Shown here in pieces: positions 7,901 through 61,900 of a DNA stretch of 64,000 nt. The stretch's first letter is position 1; every line of letters begins with the position of its first letter. The DNA is from Mytilus edulis. Lineage: Eukaryota. The notes beneath the pieces are model-generated. The model was not told the origin of the DNA. It ran no database searches and saw nothing but the letters and a program-made list of their open reading frames with translations. Location: assembly GCF_963676685.1 (NCBI RefSeq), contig NC_092352.1, positions 11,780,001 to 11,844,000 on the forward strand, given 5' to 3'. Position numbers and translations under genes: made by a program.

Positions 7901-10900
7901 GTATGAAGTCAGCCTCATAATAATGGAGAAACCAGTCGGCAAGAAAAGGGGCACAATTGGTTCCCATTGGAATGCCGACAGTCTGTTGAAAAGCACGTCC
8001 TCCGAGCGCAATAAACATGTTGTCAATCAAGAAATCCAACATCTTGATAATGTCAGATTAGGAGTTTTTTGTTTGAATCAGAGTGATCCTGTACAAAGGA
8101 GAATTTATCCCTCCATAAGACAAGATACTTGTATATACGTTTTCCATTCTTTATTATGAAACAAAGCAATACCAGCTCTTTCAATTTGTCTTTTAGTTAG
8201 AAATGTGGAATACTTGTGTAAAGTGTAGAAAAGTCAAATGTTTTAATACTATTGCGAGTTGAAAGAGAATTAGATTGTATGTACTCTGAAAGATCTTTGG
8301 ATTTTTTTAGTATCCACATCTGATTCACGCCAACTCTAGAATAGGCAGTTTCACAATAACATTGAAGCCCGGCTTTGGTTGCTGATGAAATAGATGTTAA
8401 TAAGTAAGAAAGAGATTTCGTGGAGCACTTGGAAGACCCAGCAATATATCGTTGTTTGTAAGGACACTTATGTAGTTTAGGTATCCAATACAGTGATGGA
8501 AGTTCCAGTTGCTCTGATTATCCAGGATTTCCACTTTGGTAAGTGTCGTAAGGGTTTATGTTGAGTTTCCAAATGAATTGTTTTAATCTCTAATTTGTTG
8601 ATCAAGCAGTTAATGTGATGAGTTTTACACACAAAAACGAGGATCATGAAATTTAAAAAAAATCGATTCAAATGAAAATGCATACAGATATTTTAGTTGG
8701 TTGCATGACTCTCTTAGTTCGCACTTATTACAATGAATAAGAATAAGTGATCTTTGCATACTGCTTGTCTATGAAAAACCTATAAGGCAAAACGATGAAC
8801 TTCAGATCATTGAGTTTATTATTGTCATAGAATTTTCAAAGTGCATTTCATTAACGATCCTTTTCTATAATACAGACTGTAGAAAATATTTCAGTTAGCT
8901 TTGGCTTAAACTGCATTCTGAAAACAAACATCGAAACAAATTATGTGTTGGCTTCATCTAATGGATCACTAATGAATCAATTGGTAATGGATTGGTATTA
9001 AACTCATATATTGTACAGAAATATTTCGTCGCTCATATCTAAACATTACAAACGGTTATGCTTTTCCTAGACAGCTTATTAAGTTTTCACACTACATTCA
9101 TTATCAGTATGCTGTTTGACATTCAAGTCACTGTTTTTATATTCATGAATTCAAGCAATAGTGATTTACCGACCGTCAATTGTCATAAACTACTCTACAA
9201 TATTTACCCAAACTGAAGTTATCTACACAAAGGAGAGAGAACGTTAGCGAGATTTAAAAACAATGTCATTTAAGTAAAATATTAATTCTAATGAATCCAT
9301 GTATTTGTTCAGTTATACGATTGTCACTTTGTGACAGTTACTTTAGGCAGTCGACTGCATAATCATTAAAAAAGATGAAAATCCATCTGCATTAATTTCA
9401 GTATTTCGATTTTCAAACATAATTTAACATTAATGTTATTTATGCAGTCATTTGTTCATGTGCTTGCTTGAAGTTCATTTTGTAAAATTTGCCAGTAATC
9501 TACAGTTCAGTAAAAAAAATGTTGTGCACATGAAAGAAGACTATTGCCGTTTTACGCGCTCAAGCTTATTCATTTTGTCTTTAAATTGATCTGTGACAGA
9601 GTCGTCTTTTCCTATTTGCATTTCTTTTATAAATCACATATTAACTAGTATTTTAAACAAACTTATACACGTATTGGTATTACTATTGATTTTTTTTCAG
9701 TAAATTAAAAGCAAACTAAATATTCTTGTTCTATACATATACAAGTTTATGAATCTACAATCTATCGATACCTGTATTTTGGCTTTGCATAAGGTTATGC
9801 TTTTCTCTAACTGTTTATGAAGTCTTTACACTAAATCCATTGGATGTTGGATGATAATTGATTGATAATTTGGTCAAAGATGCATGTTTTGATATTGGTT
9901 ATTAGTGGCTTTGAACTAGCTGTCAGTAACTAAGAGTAATCTCAGATCTGTACTGGTGTGTTAAGCCTTTTTCAACTGATTTTTGTTTTAATGTTGCACC
10001 GATGTCTCAGGTTAGAGGGAGGGTTGGGATCCCTTTGACATGTTTAACCCGGCCACATTCTATATGTTTGTGTCTGTTTTAATTCAAGAGCCTGTAATTC
10101 AGTGGTTGTCGTTTGTGGATGTGTTTCATATTTGTTTTTCATTCCTTTTTTGTACATAAATTAGGCCGTTGGTTTCCTCGTTTGAATTGTTTTACATTTG
10201 TTATTTCGAGGGCTTTTATAGCTGACTATGCGGTGTGGGCTTTGCTAATTGTTGAAGGCCGTACCGTGACCTATAGTTTTTAATTGTTTTGTCACTGGTC
10301 TCTTGTTGACAGTTGTCTCATTGGTACTTATACCAAATCGTGGAGTACTTTAATCAATTAAAAGGATAAAACAAAATATTATTGGGTGATTATGAATAAA
10401 ATAAATATGTGCAAATTACGAAAATAAACATATATTTTGTACTTGATTAACCTGCCTTTTTGGTTATTCCTTTTAATCCCCTCATTTGTCATACTCTCCA
10501 TCAGTTTTACACTGTTGACTTTTTTAAGGTATGTGTTCTTGTTGCAATTGAAAAAAGCACAATGAAAGAATCAAATGTTTAAAGTGTTGATTTAATCTTG
10601 TATACATCTAAATTGTTTTAAATTAATTTATTTCGGAAAACTTTAGATGGCGAATTAAATTAGATTTCATAGGTTGAAGTTGGTGTTGCTTAGACTTTAG
10701 TTTTCTATGTTGTGTCTTTTGTACTCTTATTTGTCTGTTTGTCTGTTATTTTTAGCCATGGTGTTGTCAGTTTATTGTCGATCAGCGTGTTTGACTGTCC
10801 CTCTGGTATCTTTCGTCCCACTTTTTATTCAATCATTGCTTAAAAAATTAAACCACATACAGTCAGATGCATTTCAAGTTTTAGAAGGCACTAAATGATC

Positions 10901-13900
10901 ATATCAATATTTGAACAAAAGAAAATATATCAATTTAAATAAATTGTCGATTTGTTTGATGTAAGTAACAAATAACAGACTTAACCGAGGCATTTTGATA
11001 CCAATGACCGCATTCAGATTCAAAAGATATTAATCATAGCATGCCAAAAGTGAATTTGGTAACCTAAATAGATAACATGAAATCAAAAATTAAGGCATGG
11101 AAAAAGAAACTATGGTGTTGAAAGTAATGATTATAAAATCTTTGAAACTACTAAATAAAATTGATAATGGAAATGGGGAAGGTTTCAAAGTGACAACAAC
11201 CGGACCATAGAACAGACAACAGCAGAAGGTCACCAACAGTTCTTCAATGTAGCGAGAAATTCCCGCACCCGAAGGCGTCCTTCAACTGACCCCTAAACAA
11301 ATATGTATACTAGTTCAGTGATAATGAACGCCATACTAAACTCCAAATTGTACACAAGAAACTAAATTTAAAATAATACAAGACTAACAAAGGCCAGAGG
11401 CTCCTGACTTGGGACAGGCGCAAAAATGTGGTGTGGTTAAACATGTTTATGAGATCTCAACCCTCCCCCTATACCTGTAGCAAAGTTTACATTTTTGGCT
11501 TTTTTTTCATGTTGTACCCGACAAACATATCGAAATAACTGAAAGGTTTGGTTTTAGACATATTTGGGAAGGAAAAACACTGATAGGCGAATATCATTCA
11601 ACAGCACTGAAATGATCATGGGTTATGGGTTAAATTCAACCATTCTGCCTAACTGGAAGATTATTCTTACCAAATATTTTAACAATCTGGGTAAATTTAA
11701 CAGAATTTAGATAATAAAAATTAATGAAAAGACTTCTGGAAAATACTAAGATTTTAGTAGCAGGTAATTTTAAGTCTGGGGAAAGTAGAAGGAGGTCTAA
11801 TAAAAGTCGAAAATAGTTTGGAAGAATAGACACATAAAACATTGCACTTCAAGCATGCTCTTTTCATGCTTGAAAACAAGTGGATTGTGTTAATTTACGT
11901 TTCTTGATTGAGTTAAGCCTTCCAATTGATATTTTATCGTGTGTTTTTCTATGTTGTAATGTTATGCTATTGTTTCAGAAAAAGGGAGAAGATTTGGTAC
12001 TATTAAAACGTTCAATTCAACCCACCATTTTTTCATAAAATGCCCTGTACCAAGTCAGCAAAATGGCCATTGTTACATTATAGTTCTTTTCTGTGTGTGT
12101 TACGTTTCGGTGTTGTGTCTCTGTTGTGTCGTAGTTCTCTTATATTTGATACGTTTCTCTAAGTTTAAGTTTGTAACCCGGATTTGTAATTTTATCTATC
12201 GATTTAGGAATTTTGAACAGCGGTATACTAATATTGCCTTTATTAATCCCGCTGCAAATGTTTGCACCTGTCCTAAGTCAGGAATCTGATGTACAGTAGT
12301 TGTCGTTTGTTTATGTAATTTATACGTGTTTCTCGTTTCTCGTTTTTTATATAGATTAGACCTTTGGTTTTCCCGTTTGAATGGTTTACACTAGTAATGT
12401 TGGGGCCCTTCATAGCTTGTTGTTCGGTATGAGCCAAGGCTCCGTGTATATTCAAACTATACAAAGAGAAAACTTGAATTCAGTGTCGATCAATTTTCTT
12501 ATTGACTACGCGTTGATTCTAGAAAAAAAGAAATACTTATAACGCATATCACGATTTACGTCAATGCGAAGAATTTCTTGAACTGAATTTGTATTTACGT
12601 TGTTCTGCAAGTTAATTTGTTAATCAATTGACTTAAGATCTAAAACAATTAAGTTGATAGCATAAAACAGTTTTTTTAAATATCTTATTACACATTTTAC
12701 CGGGTTTTTTTTTATTTATCAGCATGTCCAGGTATAGAATGTCTGTCTGGTCAAGAGATGAATATTACCACGTGTAGGTGTATCTGTAACGAGAGTAATT
12801 GGCCATGTTCTAATGGTAAGTAGTTAGTTGTTATAAAAAAAAGAACAAGTACTTACAGTTCTTTTATTTGTTTTTTTATTCCTAAATATAAGCGTTGTTT
12901 AAACTCATCTAAATGAAAATACTCAATGCTGTTAATTATGAGTTGTAAAACAATTGTGAGTTATAAATTGAGATATATAGGATGCACGTCTTGAAATTTC
13001 AATTGCACATGTCAAGGAAATTTCAACTTTTTAATATTATTTATTCTAATCGACTCCAAAGGAAATTGATTTAAAAGTATATACTTTACCATATGAGTGG
13101 GAAACGAAATGATTGAAAAAAGGCAATATCAGAGCGAGGTGCATACATGCAAAATGGCTTACTATACAGTTTAGGATCTACTCATTATTGAAGGCTTTAC
13201 GTAAAGGTAGTCTTTTTAAGGTAGTCTGTTTGGAAATCCTGCAACACATTTTCTTATTTTCCTTCTGGGTGAATAACTGCTGGAAAAAGAATAGGATATA
13301 GGTCGGAAACTTTTAGTATAAAGGTCGAACGACTATATAATAAAGTTTTGAAGCCTAAATGATAGAGGTCGAAAGACCTAAGAATAGAGGTTAAAGACTT
13401 TAGGATAATATTAAGGTCGGAAACCTAACAGATAGATGTCGTTAACCATAAAATTGAAGTCAAAAGACTAAATAATACGATAGATGTCAGAGGTTTAAAT
13501 GAAAGAAGTCAAAAACCTAAATGATAGAGATGGATATCTAAATGATATTTGACCTAATCTCTACCCCCCCCCCCCCCCCCCCAAAAAAAAACACACATTT
13601 TCTGAGTTTTAAATTTGATAATAATTTTCTTCTCTTATTGAAACTATAATGCATACCGGTAATTATCTCTTTCTAGAACTTGCAATTGCGATTGAAATAC
13701 ACTGAAAATGTTGGTCCAACTTTTGATAGATATAACATATAATATATTAATAAAATCACCTACACCTTCATACATTGTATGTTTTGGGGACGAAAAATCA
13801 AACTTATTTAATCTCTGTACAGATTCATATCCTCCTAGTATCTGGCCAACAGGAAGCTACGCGCTACCATCCAGCATGTATGGATGTCCTGAAGATAACT

Positions 13901-16900
13901 GGGAGATGTGGTATATCAATTTGACACTACCAATTTCATCAAACGATATGTACTGGAAGAGCAGTGGAACATTTTACCTTATTAGATTCAATTATTATGC
14001 ATATTATTCACATAGGAAAGATTTGCACATTTTGGGACCTTATTCAAATAGAAGTTTCCAGCTGAATTTTTGTGTCAGAGAAAGTAATGACTCGTCTGGA
14101 ATTCAAACAACACAAGGAAATTTCTGTGTGTTCGACATCGGGAAAGGTTGCGCAATTGGTAAGTTTTGAATGCACAAAACTAAACAAGGTAAAGAAATGA
14201 TAAGATTATGTATGGTCAATATAAGAAGGGCTGTATTTATTAATATGATGCAGGCATTACCTGTGGGACGAAGTCTGTATGATTATTTTTTTTCAATTCC
14301 AACATATTAAAACTTTAAAATGTGTTAAAAAAAAAGAAACGGATACACCGTGACGTTTCCGATTTTGGTTCTGTTGTTAGGGATTTTAGTTGTGACGTCA
14401 TACTCGATGTAAACAAAGAAACGATATCATCAGGTAACGTTTTGTTCATATCAAAGAATTATTAAAAATGAAATTGGTATTGAGTTCCTTCCTATAATTA
14501 CTAGACTGATAAATATAAATATATTATTTTTACTCAAAGTCTCACGAAAATGCCACCGGAAAAATGAAGAAGAATTTTGATTTCTGCGTAGATGCGGGAA
14601 TTAAAAAAGTGACAAATAAAAGTTAACGATTTTGAGTTCATTTGTACAATGAAAAATTTTCCCGGTTTTTGTTTTTGTTATTGATTTTTCTACTGTTATA
14701 TTTTATTTTACTACTATTTTTGCAACATTCCAGCAGCACCGGCATACGTATATATCTTCCAATTGATACGACATTCCCATGCTTGTATTTCCTATCATGA
14801 TTTTATTGATAGAGGGTTGCTGTTCACAAGAAAAGTATTCAACCAAGAGTTCCAAATGGTGATGTTGATATCATCCCTTCGTAAATTTTACGGACGATAT
14901 CACTAGTTTGTTGACCGTTATGGAATAACTGTTTCACAAATGATATCGGATATGTTCCTTACGTCTTAAATACCATGCCCTTCCCTTTCATGAATGTGAC
15001 CTACCGAATTAGACTATTTACCGGATTTGTTATCAAATAAGCAACACGACGGGTGCCACTTGTGGAGCAAGATCTGCTTACCCTTCCGAAGCACCTGAGA
15101 TCACACATAGTATTTTGTGTGGTTCGTGTTGTTTAATATTTAGTTTTCTATGTTGTGTCATGTGTACTATTGTTTGTCTGTTTGTCTTTTTAATTTTTAG
15201 CCATGGTGTTGTCAGTTTATTTTTGATTGATGAGTTTGACTGTCCCTCTGGTATCTTTTGTCCCTCTTATTTAGGGTACTTCGTCCCTTTATTATTTTTT
15301 TTCATCTAAAGAAAGAATTATCTTGTAAGTTATGGATGATGTTCTGTCATTATATACATACATTTCACATTAAACTTAAAATAACAAACGTGATTGTTCT
15401 ATTTTTTCGAACTTTCAATTCTCAAAAGTAGTATATCCTTGACCCCTAACCGGAGGGATTGTGCCTGATATTCATATGATGAAGACATAATCTTTCAATC
15501 AGTTTAATTGAGGTCTGGAGCTGGCATGTCAGTTAACTGCTAGTAGTCTGTTGTTATTTATATATTATTGTCATTTTATTTATTTTCTTTTGTTACATCT
15601 TTTTGACATCGGACTCGGACTTCTCTTGAACTGAATGTTAATGTGCGTATTGTTATGTGTTTACTTTTCTACATTGGCTAGAGGTATAGGGGGAGGGTTG
15701 ATATCTCATAAACATGTTTAACCCCGCCGCAATTTTGCGCCTGTCTCAAGTCAGGAGCCTCTTGCCTTTGTTAGTCTTGTATGATTTTTAATTTTAGTTT
15801 CTTGTATATAATTCGGAGTTTAGTATGACGTCCATTATCACTGTACTAGTATACATTTGTTAGGGGCCAGCTGAAGGACACCTACGGGTGCGGGAATTCT
15901 CGCTACATTGAAGACCCATTAGTGGCCTTCAGCTGTTGTCTGCTCTATGGTCGGGTTGTTGTCGCTTGGACACATTCCCCATTTCCTTTCTCAATTTTAT
16001 CCTTGACGTTGACATATCGAAATCAATACGTTACGCTCCTGAATTTTTAAACACTGTACTCACATTAGTAACAGGGTAGTGCTCCAATCAAAGTTACTGG
16101 TCTAATAGTGAAAAAAATATGATTGAAACAAACAGTTAAACAGTTGTATGGCCACCATCACAAACTAGTTGACATATACTCTTCCAAAATGTTTTTGAAA
16201 CCTTTGATCTTGAGATATCAGTAAAATTATCTGACATATATTTAATTAAATCGAATGTATCCAATTCCCCATTTGACATTTTGACTGACAGTGATGAATA
16301 CATAGAAAAATACCCTTACCATGTCGATACAGACGATTTTCTCCGTCTTTCATTTGATGCGATTCCCCTTTTTTGGAACTATGTTTGTCTCTTTTAACCC
16401 TGAATTGGGACAGGCGCAAAATTTCGGCGGGGTTAAACATGTTTATGAGATCTCAACTCTCCCCTATACCTCTAGCCAATGTAGAAAAGTAAACGCATAA
16501 CAATACGCACATTAATACGTTCTCCTATCTATTTGTATTGTAGTCCTGTAATATTATGTTGTCATTTCAATGTTATATTTAACATTGCCATTAAAGTGCG
16601 AGGTTTGGCATGCCACAAAACCAGGTTCAACCCACCATTTTTTCCTTTAAAAATGTCCTGTACCAAGTCAGGAATATGGCCATTGTTATAGTATTGTTCG
16701 TTTCTGTGTGTGTTACATTTTAACGTTGCGTCGTTTGTTTTCTCTTACTTTTGAGTGTAATTTCACATTGCGATAAGACGTGTCACGGTACTTGTCTATC
16801 CCAAATTCATGTATTTGGTTTTTATGTTATATTTGTTACTCTCGTGGGATTTTGTATGATGCTTGGTCCGTTTCTATGTGTGTTAGAATTTAGTGTTGTG

Positions 16901-19900
16901 TCGTTGTTTTTCTCTTATATTTAATGCGTTTCCCTCGATTTTAGTTTGTTACCCCGATTTTGTTTTTTTGTCCATGGATTTATGAGTTTTTAACAACGGT
17001 ATACTACTGTTGACTTTATTTAAACAATTTACGAATTTAAACACTATTTTATTTGAATGGGCTTTCAGATTCATCTTTACCGATTTGACTCAGATTTTCA
17101 TATTTGATATATAATAATGTAAAACATTTATCCAAATTGTAAAAAGTCTAGGTCTGTTGAATTTCATATCATAGATTAAATATGTATGATAATAATCGCT
17201 TGTTACTGTATAAGAATGATTTTCGTCGATCAAATCAGTCAATCAAATTATTTACCTTTGTTTTACTTTCAATGTTGACATTCTTTTCCCTTTAAATAAC
17301 TAAACACGCACTATGCATGATGTATCCATCTCTAGCTCAGGGTTTTAATTGAATTTCTCGTGAATACGGATTCAACGTGGTCGAATTATTCACCTACAAG
17401 TGAATAATTCATCATCAATGTCTCTTAGCTAATTTTGATAATATTGAACAATAATGGCTGCTTAAAACGATTAATAGTTGAATAAAAATAATCATACTTT
17501 AGATTTTTTACATATATTGTAGCTAGTGCCCCTTTAACTATAGCACCATAAAATTCAGAAATAGTTTTTTTGTTTGTTAATTCTTTAAAAAAATATGTTT
17601 ATTCTATTAGGAATAGTATAAAAAAAACTGGTACTCTTATTTCAAAACCATCAGCTACTATGTCAAAAACAAGTAAGGGCAGAAACAATTCGTATAAATG
17701 CAATGTAAAATTTAAGAAGAAGAATATACAAATTGATTTAAAGAGCATTAACTGATAAGTCTATACACGACTGCATATAAGATAAACTCATCTTTATACA
17801 ATTGGTAGGTTTTAAAGAAGGCAATATGACTTTAAGAGGCTATCACATTAACATGGTGGGATTCGGTATACATTCTGAGAAGTCAACAAGTGTGATATTT
17901 TGTTGCAAAGAAGATAATACCAGCAATTTGTCCGAAGTATTTCCACATGAGTACCCGTTCGTTTTATTAAAGGTATGACGCACTTTACACAAAAAAAGCC
18001 CCTGTCAAGCAACAAGTGTTGCAATGTTGATTTGTAACCAGTTATGTATATAAAATTTTGTGCGTATTACATTATATAATCATAGTCTTTCAATGAGTCA
18101 ATATGAATTAAAAGATTTTAAAAATTTGCAGATGTGATTTATATATAGATGTCTAAAATAAAATACGATAGGCTGCCAATAATATCATTATTGTTTGACG
18201 CAAATTTTATATTGCGGTTCTTCAAAAGTAAATCATCAACATTCCAACTGGCTCAGTTTTCGGAAAATGACATCGTAACAAACATTAGGGTGTTACTACC
18301 TCTTTAAAAGCAGAACATAAACAAATAAAAGTTCCAACTACTAGTATGTACTGGCTTCCATATCTGCACAAAACACCTTTTGAACCCATTAATTTACCAC
18401 TAAACTGTCTATTTGAGTTACTTGTAACCTAGTATTGTTTATTTGTTTTAAATCAGGTATCAAAAATAGTCGAATTAATTACTTTCTGTCGAAATTCGTT
18501 TTGACTAATAAGATTTGTGCTTTCGAATCAGTTAGTTTTGATTTTTCTACTGCATAAACCACTTTGCCTCATATATATAATCTCATTTAGAAAAACATCA
18601 CATACCTAATCAAATCGGCATTACGTCTACTTTATTTGGACTTCGGTGGATAGTTGTCTCATTGCCATTCATACCAAATCCTGTTATTTTTACAAATGAA
18701 AAAAGTCAGAATGTGAAAATATGTTTTCAAATTCTTTATGTAACGACGATCAAAATTACATATCACACTTAGCCTATATGTATATGCATGGCCGTGGGAT
18801 ATGCTAATGGTTTGTATTGTGTTATAAGTTCCAAGATATTTTTGTATTGAATAGGGTCCAAGCAAAGCCCATTGCGAACATATAAACGATATGACTGTTA
18901 GTGAAGACACGATGTTCATGATTAGACATGGTGTACAGTGGCCATTTCATGGAACGATTCCTAATGTGACATTGACTGATACACATATCGGAATTCCATT
19001 TTGTGTCTATCAACCGAAAAGTTACAGTAATCCTATTGGTTTAGAAGGTACGTATTCATATTTCAAAAGACGTCTGGTAGACTTTTAGGGAAATAAAAGG
19101 CCAATATATAGAAGCATGAAACTACAGAAATATCAGTTAATTTGAAACACTGTCATCAATTTAACTAGCAGTACACAGGATAGGAAAGACAAGGTTTTTT
19201 TTCTAAATCATTCGATTTTCTATCTGTTTGACCAGCCCAGGAGTCAGCACCTCTGTGTTAACATGAATTATCATTGATATGGTCATATTTATAAATTAAC
19301 TGGTAACTGAAATAATAAGGCTTTTCTACCTCAGGAACATATTACCGTCGCTGTATTTGGTAAAACTTTTAGTAACTTAAGTCCCCAATGCTCTTTAACT
19401 TACTACTGTATTTGGTCTTTTTAACCTTTTGGGATTGGAGCGTCACTGATGATTCTTTTGAAGACGGAACGCGTGTCTGGTTTTAATATAAAATGTTATC
19501 CTGGTATCTACGTTGAGTTTTTTTTATGCAAACTAAGAATATAATACTGATTATCCCTTCAGTACGACACCCTGTTTTAATTGGGTTCTGTATTGTCTGT
19601 AATTTTCTCGCAAACTCTTCCATTTGTTTTTTTAGCTATGGTGTAGTCTCTTTTTCTTCAATTTTTTTTTTAATTTATTTTCTTCATTCCTTCTTGGTAT
19701 ATTATGTGCCTTTTTAATTACCAAGTAAGATCAACTTTTCACACAAACACAACAAAATTCTTGAGAAAAAGTAATATTCATTGAATAATCCAAAGAATTA
19801 CTGAGCTTCATTGTCAAACAAGAAATATATTTTAGGATGTTCCCTGCTTTCTTTCAAAATACCAAACTCTATAAAATACCTTAATAGTATATAAAAACAG

Positions 19901-22900: not shown

Positions 22901-25900
22901 CGTCCAATAAAAATGGATCACTAAATTATTATAATAAAAATTAATGAAAAAACAAAGCAATTTATAAAAAATCACTCATTTGTTTTATTCTGAGCGATAG
23001 TTCACTAAAAATATCAAGGTGAAAACTATTGCATTATATCCTACTTTATTAAAGTTTCATTGAGGCAAGGATAAAATTATAACAATTCAAACTGCCTTGG
23101 ATGTTATATTATAGAAGATTAGAAACATATGTTTCTTACACGTTATATGTAAATCATTGAAAGTGTTCGTGGAAAAAAAAAGATATTTTAAAAAAATTAA
23201 ATAAAAATTAGTAAACCATATTCTAACCTTGGGATATAAGATAAACAACAATCACTTTTGCAATTTGAAATGCTTATCATATTCCTGAAGGTCTGAATGC
23301 AGATGAAAACCTGTACATACTGTTGCCATTTTCAAATCAAATTTCAAGAAATATCAGAAATGGAGTTTAAACGGCAGGGTTAACTTTGTTAACTGAATCA
23401 AACTACATACATGTTTATCTTTTCATTCTTTTATATTTAAGATTGATATAATATAAAGTATAATCAATCATGTGATCAAAACCATATACTAAGATAGCAT
23501 CTATGTAGGTGTATAAGCTAAAAATTGTGTGTTGATGTATAAACCCCAAATGGCACAGAACAAGATCTGCTCTAGGTAGTCTATTGTAGACAAGACGGTA
23601 CATTTTTGCATCATGGGTTACATTGTTCGCACTATTGTCGAATTGAAAAAATAAGGGGACACAAGAAGATTTTTGAAATGAATGATATATCTTCTTGTCT
23701 TCAATTATGAAGTAAATAAGCAAGTTGAATTATCCACTTTTGGTTCACTGAACGTTAAATTTGACCGATATAGTTTGTTGTCCATTCATTTGATGTTTTT
23801 GAGCTTTTAATTTTGCCATTTGAATAAGGACTATCTATTTTGAATTATCCTCGGAGTCAGTATTTTTGTGTGTTTACTTTTATTCAAAGAATAAAAACAT
23901 TCGAATAAATATATACAAGTATAATAAACCTTACATATAAAGTCATTTTTCTTAATAGCAAGCTAATTATCTATAAAACATACCTATATCAAATATGATA
24001 GTAAAACTTTAAATAAACAAAAAAGTAGCACATGTAGGTTTCAATAGTAGTATTTCCTGGCCAATTAGGATAATGATAGCTTTTTGGCATTTTTTTGACT
24101 TATTAACACTAACCAAATACATACATACACTGTTTATTGAAGTTATATCTTAAAACAATTTTGAATTTCTTTGATGACTGTATACTCTTTCTGTTATCTT
24201 TATAAACTTGGCCACTGGTATTTTTATGTATTTTATCATGCGGTGAATTTGACATTTTAAATATTACTTCAAAAGTTATTTTCATCTGCATGTAAAATAA
24301 TTTCAATTCTAGGTTACACAAAAGAGCAACCTTAATGACGAAACATAAAAACTATTGTGCCACTTTAACAAAGACATAAAAAAAAAACTTTAAACCAGCC
24401 ACGGCAGTTATGGTGAATATATTTCTTACTAGGAAACATATAACAATAAAGAAAACTCGTCTGTTTTTTTTTAAGCAAACAATTACTAACAGATAATAAC
24501 CCTATTCCTGCTGGCGGCAATTTTTTTTTATGACATATAAACGTTTTATTCCTTAATATTTCCTGTATACAATTACCTTAGTCGTCCAGGAACAGGCTAA
24601 GGGTCCCTGTTTACAAAATGAACCATCTATCCAGGGGAAATAGAAGGCAATAAAAAGGTAGTCCACCTTTTACCTTGGATTTACAATTAGTGTAAAAAAA
24701 ATATAACCATATAATGTTAGAAGCATCTAACAGTTCCATAATTATTTTAAAGTACAGTAAGTACATGTAAATAATAAGATACCCACACAAGAGATGTGCA
24801 TTTACTACAATAAACATGATAGTTTAACTTTTTTATCATTTTTTTTTTATATTTGTATAAATTGTTAACATCGATATTCTTATACGATAACCCATTAAAA
24901 AAATGCACTTTGACTCAAGCTTATACCATAATTATTGTCTACATTTTCATTATTGCCAACTCCCAATTTTGTCTTATCAATGTTTTTTTTTATTTTACCA
25001 TTTTTTCGTAAGCAGCGAACAAAAACCGATCATCAGATGTCTCAAATCAGAAAAAAGTAAAATATGGTGATTCATAAGAAAGTAATGGATTGCCAACTCT
25101 ATTTCTAGTTAATATGGCTCTGAACGCAAAAGTGAAAGTACAAAATAAAAAAAAAAAAAAAAACATTACCGAACTCCGAGGAAAATTCAATCGTAAAGTT
25201 TCAAATCAAATAGCAAAATCAAATGACAAAACACATCAAACGCATGGACAACACTGTCATATTCCTGACTTGGTAAAGGCATTTTCAAATGTAAAAAATG
25301 CCGATTCAACCTTGTTTTATAGCGCTTAACTTCTCACCTGTATGACAAAGAAAGAAATTTTGTCGTCCAATGTTTATTCAAAAATTATAATTTCACATTG
25401 GGAATGGTGGTATACAGGGTAAAAAAATCAAAAGTTAAGTTAAAATTAATTTCAGAAAGAGACCAAGATTTAAAATTGTCCAGACGTTCTTTAAGAATCC
25501 ACCTATGATTAGTAATATTACGCGAGTAAAATAATTTTGTCGTTTGTCATTCAAAGTATTTTTAAATTTATAATAGAAAAATAACATAATGTAAGATAAT
25601 TGAACAATAACATAATGACGGGATCTTTTAAAGCATAGAGTCACATTATAAGAACCAAAGAAACACAAAAACGATAGTTCATTCAACATATTACAGCATG
25701 TCTTACATTCCATTTAACATTTGTAGGTTATGTTGGCAACATAACAAGATTCTTAAAATGGCATTCCACTCTTATTTTTTAAATAATTTGACAATATAGG
25801 AAAAAGGATATATCTCGAAGTTGGCTGTTTGTCTCTTTCTTTTTTAGGAAAAATTTGTCCCCTTACTTAATTAATTTACCTTTTTGGTTATTACTATGGT

Positions 25901-34900: not shown

Positions 34901-37900
34901 AGTATACCGCTGTTCAAACTCATAAATCCATGGACAAAAAACAAAATCGGGGTAACAAACTGGGAAACGTATAAATATAAGAGGAGAACAACGACACAAC
35001 ACTACAATGTAACACAAACAGAAACAGACCAAGCATCAGACAAAATCCCACGAGAATAACAAATATAACATCAAACCCAAATACAGGAAATAGGGATAGA
35101 CAAGTACCGTGACACGTCTTATCGCAATGTGAATTTACACTCAAAAATAAGAGAAAACAAACGACGCAACATTAAATTGTAACACACACAGAAACGAACT
35201 ATAATTTAACAATGACCATATTCCTGACTTGGTACAGGACATTTTTAAAGGAAAAAATGGTGGGTTGAACCTGGTTTTGTGGCATGCCAAACCTCGCACT
35301 TTAATGACAATGTTAAATATAACATTGAAATAACAACATAATATTACAGGACTACAATACAAATAAATAGGAGAACGTATTAGACAAAGAAACACATGAT
35401 TAATGAATAACACAATTTTCAGGTTTAAAATTCAATACGCCAAAAACGCGCCTTGTCCAAACAAGACTCACCAGTTACGCCCAGATATAAAAGATCGAAA
35501 GCGATAAAAAGTACAAAGTTGTACAGCACCGAAGATCAAAAGGCTATGTTTTTATGCTTGGGATAAGAACATCCTTATTATTTAGAACAATTAATGCTAT
35601 TGCAAACAGTAAATTTTATCAAATGAATATAACAGATATACATAATGAAACTGAAATATTAACTCATTACATAAAACAAACACGAATACATAATGCAAAA
35701 AGACCCACACAGAATAGACACACCCGACTCAGTTCAGGCCTCAACGCAGTAAATTATGAAAATGACGTCACATACCATGATGAAAAGGCATTAAAAATTA
35801 CGTCACATTTGAATATATGAAATTTCTGAAACAACAGAAAAATGACGTCACATATGAAAAACTATATCTCAAAAGTAAGATAGAATTAGGATTGATTAAA
35901 GATTATAATAGAACTAAATACTGATATTGCATTTTAACACAATGCATATTGCATTACTTATTAATAGCAATTAACTATGATATATATATATGTCCAGTTT
36001 GTTATGAATCCAATTTCAAACGTAAATAATCGTACAAATTACGTTGACCAAAATTAAATCTAATAAATAACGGCGGTGATTAATTTTTCTTTCCATAACA
36101 CATAAATATAATAGAAAAGACGTCAATACATTTGACAAAATCCGATGAGAATTACAAATATAACATTAAACATTTAAACTAAATACATGAATTTGGGATA
36201 GACAAGTACCGTCACACGTCTTATAGTAATGCGAATTCACACTCAGCAAAGCAGTCACAATCGGGAATAAGTCACGTTTGGTAATTAAAAGATTAGACGA
36301 CATAATGACGAACCACAAAAGTGAGGCAACCGGTAACCAACGGATATTCAGACTTATATGTAAATTTATACATTTTTAATCAGACAACAATTACAATGTC
36401 TTTAGTTCTTTAAAAATAGCAAAAACATCTATGACGCTGAGACGATGTATATCCCAACTGTATCTCTACATAAGGTTCTGATGGTTTGGGGGAATACAAC
36501 GTTGTGAATTGTTAATTATCGAGGTGGTATGGTCGTCTAGACCAGTTTTATTTAAATTGATTGATATAGCCATGTATGCTTGAAGTGCAACATGATTCAT
36601 GATGGTAAACAATATAAACACAACCATAATCGACTGTTTTCTTACTATAGGTTGTCGTAATATATGGTGTAAAGAATCAGAAGGTAGTCTCTTCCGTCAA
36701 CCGAAGAAAAGCATTGATATGGGATTTGCTTCTGTTCGACATTTTGAAACACACTATTTCAGAATATGTGATAATTCAAGTATGAATTTTGAAGAATGCC
36801 AACAGCTGACTATGGCTAAAGGATACATTGGAAATGTTTATGAGGAATCAAGAAACCACTGTTGTTATTACAATACAAGTAGCACCAATAGACACTACAA
36901 ACATAATTGGAAAAGAAATGAATTCGAAGATGTAATAACATCCGAGAGACTTTGTTTCTCAGGTAAAGATCCAGTAAAATGTCTTTATTATATACATCAA
37001 TAACATCTATTATGAACATATTAAATAAGATGTAACAAATATATAAAAGTATAAAATACCAAATATACAAAAATATAAAATTACAAATGTGGTGTGTTAA
37101 ATTCACATGAGAATTGATATCAAAGAAATATCAAAACTCCTTGGTCTACTACAAACTGGCATGCGATGGCAAAAATTCAAAAAAAAACACAAAACACAAA
37201 GCAAAACGAGGGATCGGAAAGGGTTGGGTAAATACTGAATAGCAAATAGCATTTTTCAAAAGCCATCAAATTCATCATTACAACCTGCAATTCAAATATT
37301 AAGGGGTAATCTAAATGATAAGCGGAACGACAGTCAAAGATAAACTCTGTTTCTTCGGGAAGGTAAGCAAATACTGAAACTCGAGCATTAAGTACTTCTT
37401 TTATATTTGATATTTTGTTTAAATTTGAATGTCCTATTTACAACTATCCATACTTTCTACTTTTTACCCATGAACATTGGAGATTTATAATATATGCCAG
37501 GCATTAAAGAAGCGATACAAATTTACCATTTTTATTATCTTGACACGAAATTTGTACATTTTTGGGATTGATAAGACGTAAAGAAACACCAATTCTAACA
37601 TGACGTCCTTCAAACGCTTTGAGTACACAACCGTGGTAAAATATGAATATATTGCCAGTGCTGTTCCGATTGTACTCCCACGTCATATGCTTTTTTATGA
37701 ATGAGATACCCGACGTCATAGAACAATGACGTTAGAATTGTAAGCATTTTACGGGAAAATACACGCTTGTGAATCCGAAAATCATCACAAGGAAACATAC
37801 ACAAATGATGCTAAAATGTGGCAAAAGCCCTTTATTGTACATCATATATAAGACATATAAATAAATTATCATTCAAATTCATCCAAAACTGTCTAAATAC

Positions 37901-49900: not shown

Positions 49901-52900
49901 TAACAGTCAAGGTATATTTCTAGAATTAAAGTTTTAAAACTAATATAAAAAACTATCTCAAGCATAATTCTTTGAAATATTAATTTAACACAACAACAAA
50001 AATTACAGTAGCAATCAATCAAAGCAGAATAAAAAAAAAGTCTTTTGTATTTTGGATAACAAAAAAATCCATTTGGTCCTCAACGCTCTTCAACTTTGTA
50101 CTATATTTGGCCATTTGCCCATTTTTTTTATTTGTGTCACTGATGAGTGTTTTGTAGACGAAAAGCACGTCTAGCGCCAATATAAAATTTCAATCCTAAT
50201 ATCTATAAATGTTCAAATTTCTTAAATCCATAAATCCATAAATCCATATAGAAAATAAGAATCAAGGTAAACATATAAATCGAGAGAATCGCACGAAATT
50301 CAAAAAGTTGTAAGAATTGTACATCAATAGAACAAACCTTCTAATACATATGTATCTTACGCCATACGGTTCCACATCAATAAATACAGGGAATAGGATA
50401 AAATCTAGAATCAACTAACCAGACTACTATTCAGGTATGTTATGATCTAAGAACGTTTAAACATGTCGCTTATGAACAAAAAAACAGACACACATCTAGT
50501 GTGTCCATTACGCGCAATTAATGTCGGTTTCAGTAGGTCTTCCTTTCAAAACTATTGAATATTATATGGGGAGGGTTTGACGCAAGCAAACACGTTTCAC
50601 TTATCTGTATAGCTCGTTCTTATGCTGTACTGTATGTATGTGCCTGTTTCAAGTCAGAAGCCAGTAATTCAGGGGTTTTCTTTGCTTACTCGATTACATA
50701 TTTGTTTTTCGCTTATGAACCAAAAAACAGACACACATCTAGTGTGTCCATTACGCGTAATTAATGTCGGTTACAGTAGGTCTTCCTTTTAAAACTATTG
50801 AATATTATATGGGGAGGGTTTGACGCAAGCAACCACATTTCACTGATCTGTATAGTTCGTTCTTATGCTGTACTGTATGTATGTGCCTGTTTCAAGCCAG
50901 TAGCCAGTAATTCAGGGGTTTTCTTTGCTTACTCGATTACATATTTGTTTTTCGTTCAATGTTTTGTTTCGGCTGTGGTTTTTCTCGTTAGAATTGTTAA
51001 AAATTTGTCGCAGTGGATCATTTTATAGCTGAATATGCGTAATGGGCTTTGTTCATTGTTGAAGGCCGTACGATAACATATAGTTGTTAATTTCTGTGTC
51101 ATTTGGTCTCTTTGGAAGAGAAATAATACCGCATATTCGTTTTTTAGATTAACGCCCGGAAATTGTGTATGTTTCTATACATAAATCTAATTTAGTTGAA
51201 TGGTTTTATATTTGTCATCTTCTGCTGTATAGTTAAATATATAATGATAACATGTCATACCAACTTTCTTTTGACCTAATAATATATATATACCAACCCT
51301 GAAATTGAATTTCAAGAGATAAACTTTTTTTCTGTTTCAGTGACAGATTTAAGAAAAATTTTACGTGGCAATAAAGGAATATCAAGTCATAACCAATCCT
51401 TATTTACATGTGGAAATGGCGAGGTTATATCACAGCTAGCAGTTTGTGATACTTATAATGATTGTTCTGACAGGTCTGACGAACAAAAATGTGGTACGAA
51501 ATATTTTCCGTATCAATTTCAAAGTAAAACATGAGATACTAGAATTCCCAATATCCTTTTGTAATAAAAAAATAAAGATTTTACAAATATAACAACCACT
51601 TGAATTGTTTTGTTAAATTAAGGTTAAAACAAGAAACCTGAATATAAAAAAAGTTATGTATTCATGGTACATTCTATTGCTTATAATACCAACCAAATAA
51701 CTTAACTGCAAACTTAAGTTCTTGAAAAGATCGCTGCTTGTTAAGAACAAAAAAGATAGGAATGTTTAGAAAAAATTGATAAACCACAGGATAAAAAATA
51801 CATGTAAGTAATTAAAAAAAATCTTTTGAAGTCAAGAAATTACTCTAATCATTGACATAGGCCATAAAAGAAAGCTTCACATAATCTTTCGTTTCTATGA
51901 ATTTTTTCAAAAGGACCCTTTACTAATTAAAGTTATTTAAAGTATAACGTTATTTTTATGGTGATTTTCTTAAATAAAGCAAAGGTGTAAACCAACGAAT
52001 GATAAATATCTTAACCGAAGTATTGTTTTAATTTTAGATATTTCACTAATTTCCTTTCAGTACGCAGTAGATTTTGCATGTATTCTACAAGATGTAAAAA
52101 TAACAATGTGAACTGTCAACATTGATCAAACTATATTTTGAATTTAAAAACAAAAACAGTTATAAATATTTTATTACAAATAAGTATATCGGTGTTATGT
52201 AACCATGGTTGATTTATATTGATCTTTCGGTTATGTAGATTTAGTTAGAGCATGCGAAAATCTATAGCATTTACCCTGTATTTGATTAATTTTGTGTTTC
52301 AATTTGGAACATGAGTCACAGATAAAAATTTCTTATACGACAATTATATGTCGTATTTGAAAGATCAAAGTAAAGCAGTATTATTTGATACATACAGGGA
52401 TCTGTAAATTATTAAGTTTTGTTTTGCTCTCATTAATATCTTTAATATGTCTATTGCTTTGTTTCATTTACAATTTGATTTTTATATGAATTAAAGAATC
52501 TGTTCACTTATATAAAACGCTTCGAATCGGAGTAAATAAAATTCTATTCGCTTTAGCAAAATCAACAATGCAGTTATTGAAATTTTCCATAGTACAGGTT
52601 AGTAAACCAGTTATATACGCCTGCCAATGTTATGCAGTTGGTACTTTTTTATGTATCATTAATAAGAGAAAATTAACTATCAATACAAAACTATGTTTAT
52701 TTGTCTAATAATCACGGAATTTTATTCGGCATCATTCGTGGCAATCTGTATTCGCCTGTATATTTTCATATTGTAGCCGTAATCGTATGTAGTAGTTCTT
52801 GTATATCCGTGACAGTTTTTGAACATGCGCAAACCAAAGTGCAGAGAAGTGGAAAACTTAATTAGCGATCCTCCTCATTAAAAAAATGTTTCATTTGTAC

Positions 52901-58900: not shown

Positions 58901-61900
58901 TAATTCGTTAAAAAAAAATGATAATGCGAAAGGGGAATCTATGTACTATGGAATAATTTTTGTTATTTCGATGCCTATAATTTATAACCTTGTTTTAGTA
59001 TTTTCCTTTTTATAACAGTTAATAAAGGATTAAATTAATCAACACATATAGGTCTTAAAACATGTTTTGTACAATGTACAATTTTTCTGAAAATAGTCTG
59101 TTTAATCATCATAAAATTATTTTCTTTTTTGTAGTTTTCATTGCTTTGGAGGCACAGACTGGAGACAAGCAGATGTCAACAGAGTGTTTACTGATGATGT
59201 AGTTATTTCAAATTCCGATATAATTCCCTTTTATTATTATACGGTTCCAAAAATATCTTACAGTGAAGAGGGGTTTTCTGATTTGAGAGTTGGACCTGTT
59301 GTATGTCGGTCAGGTATATCATCAAATATAGACAGCATGCTTATATGTTTAAGTGTTAAGATGAAAAAAGGTTTTAAAACTCAATACAATAATTATTGTT
59401 TCTGATGTTTTTGCAAGAAAAAAAAACACGCTTTACTAATGATGCTAAATTTATAATGTTCGCTGTTAAAGATTGTGACGAGATTAAACTGATCAATTAC
59501 GTGCTATCTTCTATTTAATGTCATATAAATTGTTGTACAGTTTTTTGTATTATTTAGATACGTACACCAATATTTAGTGTGTACTTGTACTTTTGAGTTA
59601 ATACTAAATAAGTATTTGAACTCAGACCATTAAAAATATGTTTGATTATGTCATTTTTAATAACTCAGAGTTCATGCAATTCCCAAGTTTAGCGGTGAAA
59701 TGATTTAAGCATATCATTTACTGACTTTATCATACGCAAATATGGATAATAAATCAATTCAGCATATGCTGAATTGTTCAATTTATACAGAAATTTTGGT
59801 TCGAAATTAATGTAATAAATATTAAACTTTGCATATGGGTCATACATACCAAGTTCTTTCAAGCATTTACCTAATTCATCTAGCATGTACTTAATTCAGT
59901 TACTTTTATAATGAATTAAGTTTATGCTAAAATGAATTTAAAAGTAAAATCACAAAAATAATAGATTGCGAGGAAAATTCAAAACGGAAATTCACTAATC
60001 AAATGGCAAAATTAAAGGCTCAAACCCATCAAACGAATGGAGAACAAATGTCATATTCCTGACTTTGTATAGTCATTTTCTTATATATGAAAATAGTTGA
60101 TTAAACCTGGTGTTATAGCTAGCTGAACCTCTCACTTGTATGAAAGTTCATAAAATTTCATTTTATTGACAACGATAAGTTATGCTAAAATAAATCGAGA
60201 TTATGTTAAAAGGTTGTGGTAACATTAATTGAGCTTATGCTAAAGTAAATTAAGCTTATCCTGAATCATAACCTGTATCTATATGATAAACTAATTGTGT
60301 TTTAAATGAAAAGCTCACTGTATTAACTAAGTGGTTGAAAAATTACTGCATGCAATCCTTACTTATACAAACATAACTCAACTTATTGATGATCAGACAA
60401 TTATTGATACTTAGGCCGTACTCTCATTGACCTAACCTAGTTTTTGAAAGCTATCAATCAAATAATTGTGTTCAAAATTTAACACTTTAAGGTATGGGGA
60501 AATCTGGATTCAGATTTTCTTTCCCTCATTGAACAGAATATTTTTCATCAATTTTAGAATCAGAACATTTTTTAGTTGTCTTTTTTAATAAACATCCAAA
60601 TGTGTTCAATTCCCCATACGTGTCTATACCAAGCTTTTTTTCCTTTACTGGAACTATCATTCGTGTCCATGTTATAAATACGTATGTTATTTGGTTCATG
60701 CTTCTAAATTAAAGTATAGTTATTTAACTATTTCATTAATAAAAAAAAATACTTTAGGTCTTTTATAACCTTGGTTAAGGATGTATTTAGGTGATATAAG
60801 GTAAAATTCAAGAATTTTATTGATTTATAGAATATGGCGAAAAAAGGCAGACTCGGACTTTTACCTTTTATTTGCATTGGTATTATTTGGGTCTCAAATC
60901 AAAAGAACGAAAATTGAGGATCTGTTTGAATTCTGTTAAATGACCTTTTATGATCTATTAAATCATATGTTAAAAAATAAATAGGTGTTAAGGGGCAACA
61001 TATTTTACCTTGCATGGTATAGAAAAACACCAAGGATTCCGAACTTTCACACTTATTCCAAAACCTCATCTAAGTACATCCTGAGCGTGGAGCGTTCGTT
61101 CGTCTATGTTGAATGTAAATGTTAGCAGCCATGCTCAGTTAAATTGGAGATATTAAATCAGATACCTCGTGTAGGTGAATGTCTCATTCTCTGCGCATTA
61201 AAATATTTGCAGCACTTCACTCTTTCTTTGTGTCATCAGTTGTCTGTTGGGAGGCAACTTTGTTTTAAATTTCCGCACATTTTAATTAAAACGGCATCTA
61301 TAACATATAGAGAAGATTGAAATAGTTCCTTACTTAAGTAAAATAAAATGGCCATTACTCGCTCCTATTTTTTTTTACATGAAAATCCCAACAAGTGTTT
61401 ATCCTGAATAGCCGTACAAATCTGTGCCAAATCCTAAATTCCGGGTATGGTAATATAACCTATATACAGTATGTATTGTTAACATGATGTCGTTCAAATA
61501 ATGCAGGAAATATGTGACACTGGACGTTATGCCTCTTGATCGTGTGTCTTATGTGATACTCGAAACTTAAAGTTTATTTTAAAAATCTCGATAACCAGTT
61601 TCTGATTCGAAGAGCTTTTAGAATATTACTGTTGACAAAAGGGAAGTCAATTCTGCTACATGAAAGCCCGCAATATTTGGATTAATATAAAAGGTATCAT
61701 TAGAGTTAATTAGTACAAAATAATTTACATAGTAAACGATTTAATCAACTCTTGAATTATTTGTATGTTTGCTCTTAATGAGCATGAAATACTTGCAACT
61801 GGACAATAAGCAATTTCAGTCAAAATCTACAAATTAAATTTGCAATTATGATAATCATTATAAACCGACACTTAAAAAACTAATGCTAATAAATGACAAC

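What the first reader, a model, noticed from the sequence alone, without database searches (positions are those of the whole stretch)
15697..15721. Twister variant in which P1 is replaced by two short palindromic hairpins
Seen: where a P5-type twister would have a hairpin-closed P1, every family has TT(T)G, palindrome 1, a 3-4 nt spacer, then palindrome 2. Examples: gagatctc + aacatgtt (11440-11460; gatatctc here), gggatccc + gacatgtt (10026-10046), ggcatgcc + aaccaggtt (16607-16627), tggtacta + aaacgtt (11996-12012), agctagct + accaggt (60105-60124). The sequence changes while self-complementarity is kept. Inference: this is a novel structural subclass, or the palindromes drive dimerisation of ribozyme copies like the palindromic helix III of minimal hammerheads.
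Basis: partly seen in the sequence, partly recalled or inferred. Interest (0 to 1): 0.72.

Follow-up and report, generated by a model that had tools for sequence, protein, structure and literature searches.

The report
Dimer-forming twister ribozyme in Naiad retrotransposons
Thousands of copies of a mussel jumping gene carry a twister-type RNA fold (predicted to cut itself, untested) whose first helix is replaced by two self-matching stretches; these stay self-matching as their letters change, so they likely zip two copies together rather than fold as hairpins.

Summary
The motif is real. It is a type-P5 twister fold in the 3' tail (pseudo-LTR) of Naiad Penelope-like retrotransposons, a clade published as lacking canonical hammerheads. 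Three exact patterns match 9,182, 5,471 and 1,643 places in this genome. Where P1 should be there is UU, palindrome 1, 1-3 nt, palindrome 2, then the predicted cut. All 12 family representatives, and three published consensus Naiads from three mussel genera, keep both palindromes with different sequences. The 'two hairpins' reading fails: hairpins are unstable (-0.8 to +5.1 kcal/mol versus -5 to -18 as duplexes), and even the two central, adjacent bases covary, which only pairing between two copies explains. This window's copy is a point-mutated, 5'-truncated leftover. Cleavage and dimer dependence are unshown. RNA-seq shows no ends at the cut, and genomic 5' ends there are modest (0/100, 6/78, 4/100) and confounded by insertion preference. 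P1-less twisters can cut as monomers, so the dimer may serve retrotransposition instead. The scan noted this motif before in another genome (e1-9558858). I found no paper describing it.

The parts
15441..15999 (+). 5'-truncated copy of the 3' tail (pseudo-LTR) of a Naiad Penelope-like retrotransposon, family A
   Evidence: Fixed 3' end about 310 nt after the T1 strand and variable 5' ends across 30 loci; reads from other copies leave the window sequence before 15442 and after 16000; reverse transcriptase upstream in 11 of 34 family A copies
15676..15684 (+). P5 5' strand (open end of the type-P5 ribozyme); pairs with about 15757-15765
   Evidence: Predicted in all folds of the family A copy
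15689..15697 (+). P2 3' strand (15689-92), conserved G (putative general base, 15693), A, and T1 strand GGG (15695-97)
   Evidence: Aligns to the Rfam Twister-P5 consensus; T1 paired in 11 of 11 rows with two double changes
15698..15699 (+). Invariant UU where the first P1 strand should begin; faces UU, so no Watson-Crick P1
   Evidence: Invariant in alignment A1
15699..15708 (+). Palindrome 1 (family word TGAGATCTCA; broken here by G>T at 15702)
15709..15709 (+). Single spacer base; the only subfamily-variable linker position in family A
   Evidence: T 22, C 17, A 2, G 1 of 42 copies; all other positions at least 38 of 42 identical
15710..15719 (+). Palindrome 2 (AAACATGTTT), ending at the base before the predicted cut
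15720..15721 (+). Conserved AA; predicted cut between 15719 and 15720
   Evidence: Inferred from the twister consensus; not shown experimentally
15722..15739 (+). P2 5' strand, T2 dinucleotide GC (15726-27) and optional P3 hairpin
   Evidence: T2 paired 11 of 11 (GU 6, AU 5); P2 81.8% paired
15740..15755 (+). P4 and loop L4 (T1 and T2 partners); C>T at 15746 makes the middle T1 pair a wobble in this copy
   Evidence: P4 invariant and paired; reads carry C; this copy has no Rfam hit at E<=1
11403..11469 (-). Family A copy with intact palindromes
16399..16465 (-). Family A copy, 3'-truncated, with T1 and L4 substitutions
10015..10060 (+). Family B copy (palindrome 1 GGGATCCC); P4/L4 decayed
16596..16672 (+). 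Family C copy (TGGCATGCCA + AACCAGGTT), intact core
11984..12282 (+). Family E ribozyme split at its predicted cut site (3' half resumes at 12245) by an inserted family C copy that itself starts near its own cut site
60058..60130 (-). Decayed family D copy (published Naiad_Mgal tail type)
35223..35295 (-). Family C copy, intact core
25264..25340 (-). Decayed family D2 copy (palindrome 1 AGCGCT)

Best explanation
This is a type-P5 twister ribozyme fold in the pseudo-LTR of Naiad retrotransposons in which helix P1 is replaced by two self-complementary tracts that likely pair with the same tracts of a second copy, and this pairing is predicted to license cleavage (untested). Shown: the fold's sequence covariation, its position in Naiad tails, and palindromy kept through sequence change, including the central bases. 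Inferred: a lone copy is predicted to fold its T1 strand plus the invariant UU back onto the cut site or palindrome 2. In a tandem Naiad transcript carrying two pseudo-LTRs, the two linkers would pair; palindrome 1 is the stronger duplex, and the palindrome-2 duplex would compete with the fold-back and stand in for P1 under the cut site. Both sites would be cut, releasing a unit-length RNA that could circularise and be copied by the element's reverse transcriptase. Single copies in circles and host introns would stay mostly uncut. This is the role described for dimer-cleaving hammerheads in other Penelope-like elements.
For: Rfam Twister-P5 hit, 23.4 bits, E=0.0029, on intact copy L001. Structure count on 11 family rows: 93.9% of cells paired, T1 100% with two double-changed pairs, T2 100%, 0 of 500 shuffles as high; 4 of 5 palindrome-1 pairs change on both sides, including the adjacent central columns (AU 7, UA 2, GC 1). 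Sister subfamilies E1/E2, 0.06 and 0.048 changes per column from their node, differ by AT vs TA at the centre; held loci show AT 12, TA 11, non-palindromic 3 of 26. Duplex -10.9 to -18.2 (palindrome 1) and -5.3 to -8.6 kcal/mol (palindrome 2) versus hairpins -0.8 to +5.1. Published consensus Naiads of Mytilus, Gigantidas and Modiolus carry three further word pairs, with P4 covariation in Modiolus (PMC8557442 File S2 part 22). Full-length L031 has the motif at both ends, 3,968 nt apart. Monomer fold-back predicted in 12 of 12. PLE hammerheads with palindromic stem III are described as dimer-cleaving (PMC6765202 passages). Some copies start at the predicted cut: 6 of 78 in family B (5 by script, 1 by eye), 4 of 100 in family D by eye.
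Against: No cleavage shown. Four RNA runs show continuous depth and no listed pile-up of ends at the predicted cuts (5 rows of table 6 were not shown); host transcripts dominate these reads. Family A has 0 of 100 copies starting at the cut (by eye). Three copies are split at the cut site by later insertions (window, L227, L299), so a target preference can mimic cut-site starts. P1 is dispensable or tolerant of defects in tested twisters. Nested co-folding forms the palindrome-1 duplex but keeps the T1 strand sequestered; the monomer fold-back margin (2.5-7.8 kcal/mol) ignores pseudoknot energy. Two duplexes between two closed loops may be topologically strained (reasoning, not modelled). The third T1 pair is mismatched in an abundant subfamily (G.A) and in Naiad_Mphi (U.U), and P2 is imperfect in families C and D. 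The Rfam score is below the gathering threshold of 37.6.
Confidence: 0.45

Rival explanations
1. The twister cuts as a P1-less monomer, and the two palindromes are a retroelement RNA dimer or end-joining signal (for packaging, template jumps or holding cut ends together), like PAL1/PAL2 of MoMuLV or the non-catalytic palindrome of hatchet.
For: Same covariation evidence. P1 deletion retains near wild-type activity (PMC5408937); P1 defects tolerated (PMC11662667). The hatchet palindrome drives dimers but is not needed for catalysis, and MoMuLV uses two palindromes (PMC7357161). A second, twister-unrelated repeat motif also holds a sequence-variable 10-nt palindrome in other Naiad tails. 10 of 78 family B copies begin 8-12 nt before the cut, just 3' of palindrome 1, as if copying stalls at a helix there.
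Against: Placement exactly in the P1 slot, abutting the cut, is not needed for a generic dimer signal. Monomer-active copies in thousands of introns would cut host transcripts, yet reads run through (weak, unstranded-looking data). The family B stall also fits an intramolecular hairpin or TA microhomology.
Confidence: 0.3
2. The palindromes fold as two small intramolecular hairpins forming a junction in place of P1.
For: Palindrome 1 folds as a marginal 3-bp hairpin in the linker-only minimum-energy structure of 4 of 12 representatives (-0.8 to -1.5 kcal/mol).
Against: Palindrome 2 hairpins are +1.9 to +5.1 kcal/mol; the loop bases of such hairpins would be free, yet five different centres (GATC, CATG, CTAG, GCGC, GTAC; plus TGCA) are all self-complementary.
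Confidence: 0.04
3. Palindromy is neutral: inherited from one ancestor and re-perfected by template-switch correction of near-palindromes (mechanism recalled, not tested).
For: All families share ancestry, so the 12 rows are not independent; representatives were chosen by recurring linker words.
Against: The words change on most branches of a flank-only tree, with length changes of 2 nt, and stay perfect; dead copies keep single mismatches uncorrected; flanks show no excess palindromes.
Confidence: 0.08
4. The twister is a catalytically dead scaffold kept as a protein-binding or reverse-transcriptase signal.
For: No RNA ends at the cut; imperfect P2 and third T1 pair in successful families.
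Against: All catalytic-core positions are invariant across 11 families and three genera while stems covary.
Confidence: 0.08
5. The palindromes act in double-stranded DNA as sites for a dimeric protein.
For: The words resemble dyad sites; the element encodes a GIY-YIG-like domain.
Against: Symmetry, not sequence, is conserved; G.U-compatible ends occur; spacing is fixed to an RNA fold.
Confidence: 0.05

Closest known systems
Type-P5 twister ribozyme (Rfam RF02684; definition in PMC5408937, passages read)
   Same: Termini in P5; P2, P4, T1, T2; conserved GA, AA at the cut, and L4; P1 slot of similar length (20 model positions vs 21-24 nt).
   Different: No base-paired P1 hairpin; two palindromes instead; T2 uses U (GU/AU) not C; below gathering score; untested.
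Schistosoma T-variant twisters of Perere-3 (PMC8501958, passages read)
   Same: Twister with defective P1 attached to a retrotransposon; proposed to process element RNA.
   Different: T-variants are open at P1 at the 5' end of an APE-type LINE, with P1 made from target DNA; here P5-type, in the 3' pseudo-LTR of a Penelope-like element, with a conserved, covarying P1 replacement. 'Dimer' and 'Penelope' have 0 occurrences in that paper.
Minimal type-I hammerheads of Penelope-like elements that cleave as dimers (via review PMC6765202 passages; the primary paper was not held)
   Same: Ribozyme in the pseudo-LTR; the helix next to the cut replaced by a palindrome; tandem arrangement offers a partner.
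   Different: Different ribozyme class; two palindromes rather than one; dimer dependence not forced, since twister P1 is dispensable.
Naiad Penelope-like elements (Craig et al. 2021, PMC8557442; passages and supplement parts 21-22 read)
   Same: Domain order, CxC and DKA motifs, fixed 3' end, tandem pseudo-LTRs; family D matches the Naiad_Mgal tail.
   Different: The paper reports no canonical hammerhead, searched only for hammerheads, and has 0 occurrences of 'twister' in the main text.
MoMuLV PAL1/PAL2 and hatchet ribozyme palindrome (PMC7357161 passages)
   Same: Palindrome-driven RNA homodimers, two tracts in MoMuLV.
   Different: There the palindromes do not replace a ribozyme helix, and hatchet catalysis does not need the dimer.

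Membership tests
Twister ribozyme | Conserved core nucleotides in L1 and L4 | tested here: met
   Invariant G, A, A/A and U..AAG in alignment A1; match to RF02684 consensus
Twister ribozyme | Pseudoknot T1 (3 bp) | tested here: met
   11 of 11 paired, two double changes; third pair mismatched in one abundant subfamily and Naiad_Mphi
Twister ribozyme | Pseudoknot T2 (2 bp) | tested here: met
   11 of 11 paired
Twister ribozyme | Stems P2 and P4 | tested here: met
   P4 100%, P2 81.8% (weak in families C and D); P4 covaries in Naiad_Mphi
Twister ribozyme | Stem P1 (consensus feature, experimentally dispensable) | tested here: not met
   UU faces UU; linker unpaired or marginal as monomer; Rfam leaves it unaligned
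Twister ribozyme | Rfam gathering score | tested here: not met
   23.4 vs 37.6 bits for L001; none for the window
Twister ribozyme | Site-specific self-cleavage | not testable with these tools
   Indirect tests inconclusive
Type-P5 permutation | Termini in P5, on the 3' side of L2 | tested here: met
   P3/P5 positions from PMC11662667 section 33; folds; best clan hit is P5
Naiad Penelope-like element | N-terminal GIY-YIG, CxC linker, DKA motif, C-terminal RT | tested here: met
   Motifs read by eye in L031/L032 translations; Pfam gave no hit for two pieces at E<=0.01, so this rests on motifs and on the match to Naiad_Mgal
Naiad Penelope-like element | Pseudo-LTR / partial tandem, fixed 3' end, 5' truncation | tested here: met
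Dimer-cleaving ribozyme (PLE hammerhead-like behaviour) | Palindrome replacing the helix next to the cut, with covariation through its centre | tested here: met
Dimer-cleaving ribozyme (PLE hammerhead-like behaviour) | Cleavage requires the dimer | not testable with these tools
   Folding gives no direct support

The most novel reading that the evidence does not exclude
Mussel Naiads replaced the hammerhead with a twister and independently evolved dimer-gated cleavage: two palindromes form a two-helix, crossover-like junction between two pseudo-LTR copies, so tandem element RNA is cut and circularised while tens of thousands of single copies in host transcripts stay silent. It would be a natural obligate-dimer twister with a new RNA architecture.
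Probability: 0.35. Interest if true: 0.85.

Novelty: new variant of a known kind. Interest (0 to 1): 0.67.

Why it matters
Naiads dominate bivalve genomes, and their lack of hammerheads was used to question whether ribozymes matter to Penelope-like elements (PMC8557442). A twister in the same position in mussel Naiads suggests ribozymes were swapped, not lost. A palindrome again replacing the helix beside the cut would be convergence on dimer control across two ribozyme classes. The question is testable with 100-nt RNAs, and a concentration-gated twister would be useful for RNA engineering.

Tried and rejected
Rfam at gathering level on the window and at E<=10 on 9500-17500 found no twister; only a short intact copy hits. 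I first read the topology as type P3 and corrected it to P5. A strict structure descriptor returned 5 junk hits because its P2 register was wrong; discarded. One search had mis-registered core columns; replaced. The viral contig scan found nothing. A recurring linker with broken palindrome 1 looked like a counter-example, but the three copies examined share one downstream flank, i.e. one insertion duplicated passively. Of 19 metagenome loci, 4 gave three new intact word pairs, 8 were family A-like (3 of them point-mutated), 6 from one record set were imperfect and not used, and 1 was unrelated. No run was listed as an RNA holder on record; raw RNA runs were laid instead and showed no ends at the cut. 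A helitron-type terminal inverted repeat reading was dropped once the RT was found. Naiad_Pmar and the Naiad before it show no twister by eye, and the Naiad_Mcor consensus ends before the expected position, so the motif is not universal in Naiads.

Full report
Observation. All six cited strings are present at their coordinates, two on the minus strand. They lie in repeats that share a downstream core. Patterns that fixed only the flanking core and left the linker free matched 9,182, 5,471 and 1,643 places in the window's 1.37-Gb genome, with 0 for the reversed patterns. The copy at 15697 is damaged: G>T in palindrome 1 and C>T in L4, where reads from other copies carry the family letters; it gives no Rfam hit.

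It is a type-P5 twister fold. An intact copy hits RF02684 at 23.4 bits (E=0.0029, gathering 37.6), with the P1 segment unaligned. On 11 family representatives, P2, T1, T2, P4 and palindrome 1 together were 93.9% paired, with 0 of 500 shuffles as high and slid controls at 31-50%. T1 changes on both sides between families. P3 lies on the 5' side of L2 and P5 on the 3' side (PMC11662667 section 33), so the open end is P5. Weak points: P2 is imperfect in families C and D, and the third T1 pair is mismatched in an abundant subfamily.

Host element. Copies end at a fixed point and are variably 5'-truncated. Long copies read into an ORF with a GIY-YIG-like N-terminus, CxC and DKA motifs and a C-terminal reverse transcriptase; L031 has the motif at both ends, 3,968 nt apart. 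Same-strand RT matches lay upstream in 11 of 34 family A, 2 of 15 B, 2 of 16 C, 1 of 11 E1 and 2 of 2 M copies, and none of 8 D, 5 D2, 11 E2 or 2 F copies within 1.5 kb; family D matches the published Naiad_Mgal tail. Pfam did not hit the two protein pieces tried. Craig et al. report that Naiads lack canonical hammerheads and searched only for those.

The palindromes are real but are not hairpins. Twelve of 12 representatives have two tracts, against about 1% in random genomic or flanking windows. I chose representatives by recurring linker words; the seven linkers seen with five or more distinct flanks are all double palindromes, and the next most frequent, broken one is a passively duplicated single insertion. 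Hairpins cost -0.8 to +5.1 kcal/mol, while self-duplexes give -10.9 to -18.2 and -5.3 to -8.6. The bases that would be hairpin loops are themselves self-complementary in five different centres, and the two adjacent central columns covary. Close sisters E1 and E2 differ by AT versus TA at the centre. In family A the single spacer base is the only position that varies between subfamilies. Published consensus Naiads from Gigantidas and Modiolus add new words for both tracts. Pairing between two copies is the simplest account.

What the pairing does is open. In 12 of 12 monomers the T1 strand is predicted to be paired in an alternative fold, mostly with the cut site or palindrome 2, 2.5-7.8 kcal/mol below the open core without pseudoknot credit. 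A rough ledger puts an open-core dimer with both duplexes below the nested dimer in 5 of 12 and within about 1-6 kcal/mol in the rest, ignoring junction cost. Nested co-folding does not itself free the core. Literature cuts both ways: PLE hammerheads with a palindromic stem cleave as dimers, but twister P1 is dispensable and the hatchet palindrome is not needed for catalysis. I put twister identity at about 0.9, pairing between copies at about 0.75, and dimer-licensed cleavage at 0.45 overall.

Indirect tests of cleavage. Genomic 5' ends at the predicted cut: 0 of 100 in family A (by eye); 5 of 78 in family B by script against 1.9 expected, P=0.04 with post-hoc bins, plus one by eye (11 family A-type rows and 2 tandem repeats dropped from 91); 4 of 100 in family D against 5 in the other 34 nt (by eye). 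The six family B cases have no 5' half within the 0.6-1.5 kb held, but three other copies are split at this site by insertions, so target preference is a rival. Ten family B copies start just 3' of palindrome 1, which fits a duplex, a local hairpin or TA microhomology. RNA reads cover the element, including the ORF, but no pile-up was listed at the cut in four raw runs.

Novelty. Eight full-text searches listed no paper describing a twister in Naiads or a palindrome-armed twister. A 2020 review mentions unpublished truncated twisters in RTE elements (PMC7761336 passages). A 2026 preprint on retrozymes and PLEs has 0 occurrences of 'twister'. Subscription papers and the supplementary candidate lists of PMC11662667 (bivalve twisters) and PMC8501958 were not seen and could hold some of these sequences. 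Papers seen as passages or named sections only: PMC11662667 (abstract, sections 4, 32 part 1, 33), PMC8557442 (passages, supplement parts 21-22 and searches), PMC5408937, PMC8501958, PMC6765202, PMC7357161, PMC7761336 and the preprint (passages). The scan itself noted a twister-like tail in this genome and the same palindrome-armed motif in another genome; I saw the second only after my tests, and neither is independent support.

Verdict. A new variant of a known ribozyme class in a retroelement clade thought to lack ribozymes, with good comparative evidence for pairing between copies and no direct evidence yet for cleavage or its control. Interest 0.67.

Noticed in passing
window 15044-15110 (+), 764 and 28031 (-); L034, L156 and others: A second repeat motif with a 10-nt palindrome (CCACATGTGG in 9 of 15 copies) in a conserved frame; published Naiad tails carry three different 10-nt palindromes in the same slot. 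Possibly another dimer-forming structured RNA or ribozyme of Naiads without the twister.
   Followed up: partly
L031:6811-6813 and the matching place in L032: In-frame TGA at the same position after the DKA motif in two family A copies, consistent with selenocysteine as published for clam Naiads and noted earlier by the scan.
   Followed up: partly
window 11984-12282; L227; L299; G000:C1:22269984: Repeat copies inserted right at another Naiad ribozyme's predicted cut site; target preference or RNA-level joining.
   Followed up: partly
L284; L058-L060; window 50466-50954: Tandem units of 200, 207 and 243 bp containing the twister or a decayed form; could be retrozyme-like non-autonomous units.
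   Followed up: no
L031:8762: 121 molecules begin at one place in run X22 only, about 150 nt downstream of the predicted cut; unexplained.
   Followed up: no
window 12724-12817, 13820-14159: Apparent coding exons of a host gene with Cys-rich segments; several ribozyme copies lie nearby in both orientations.
   Followed up: no
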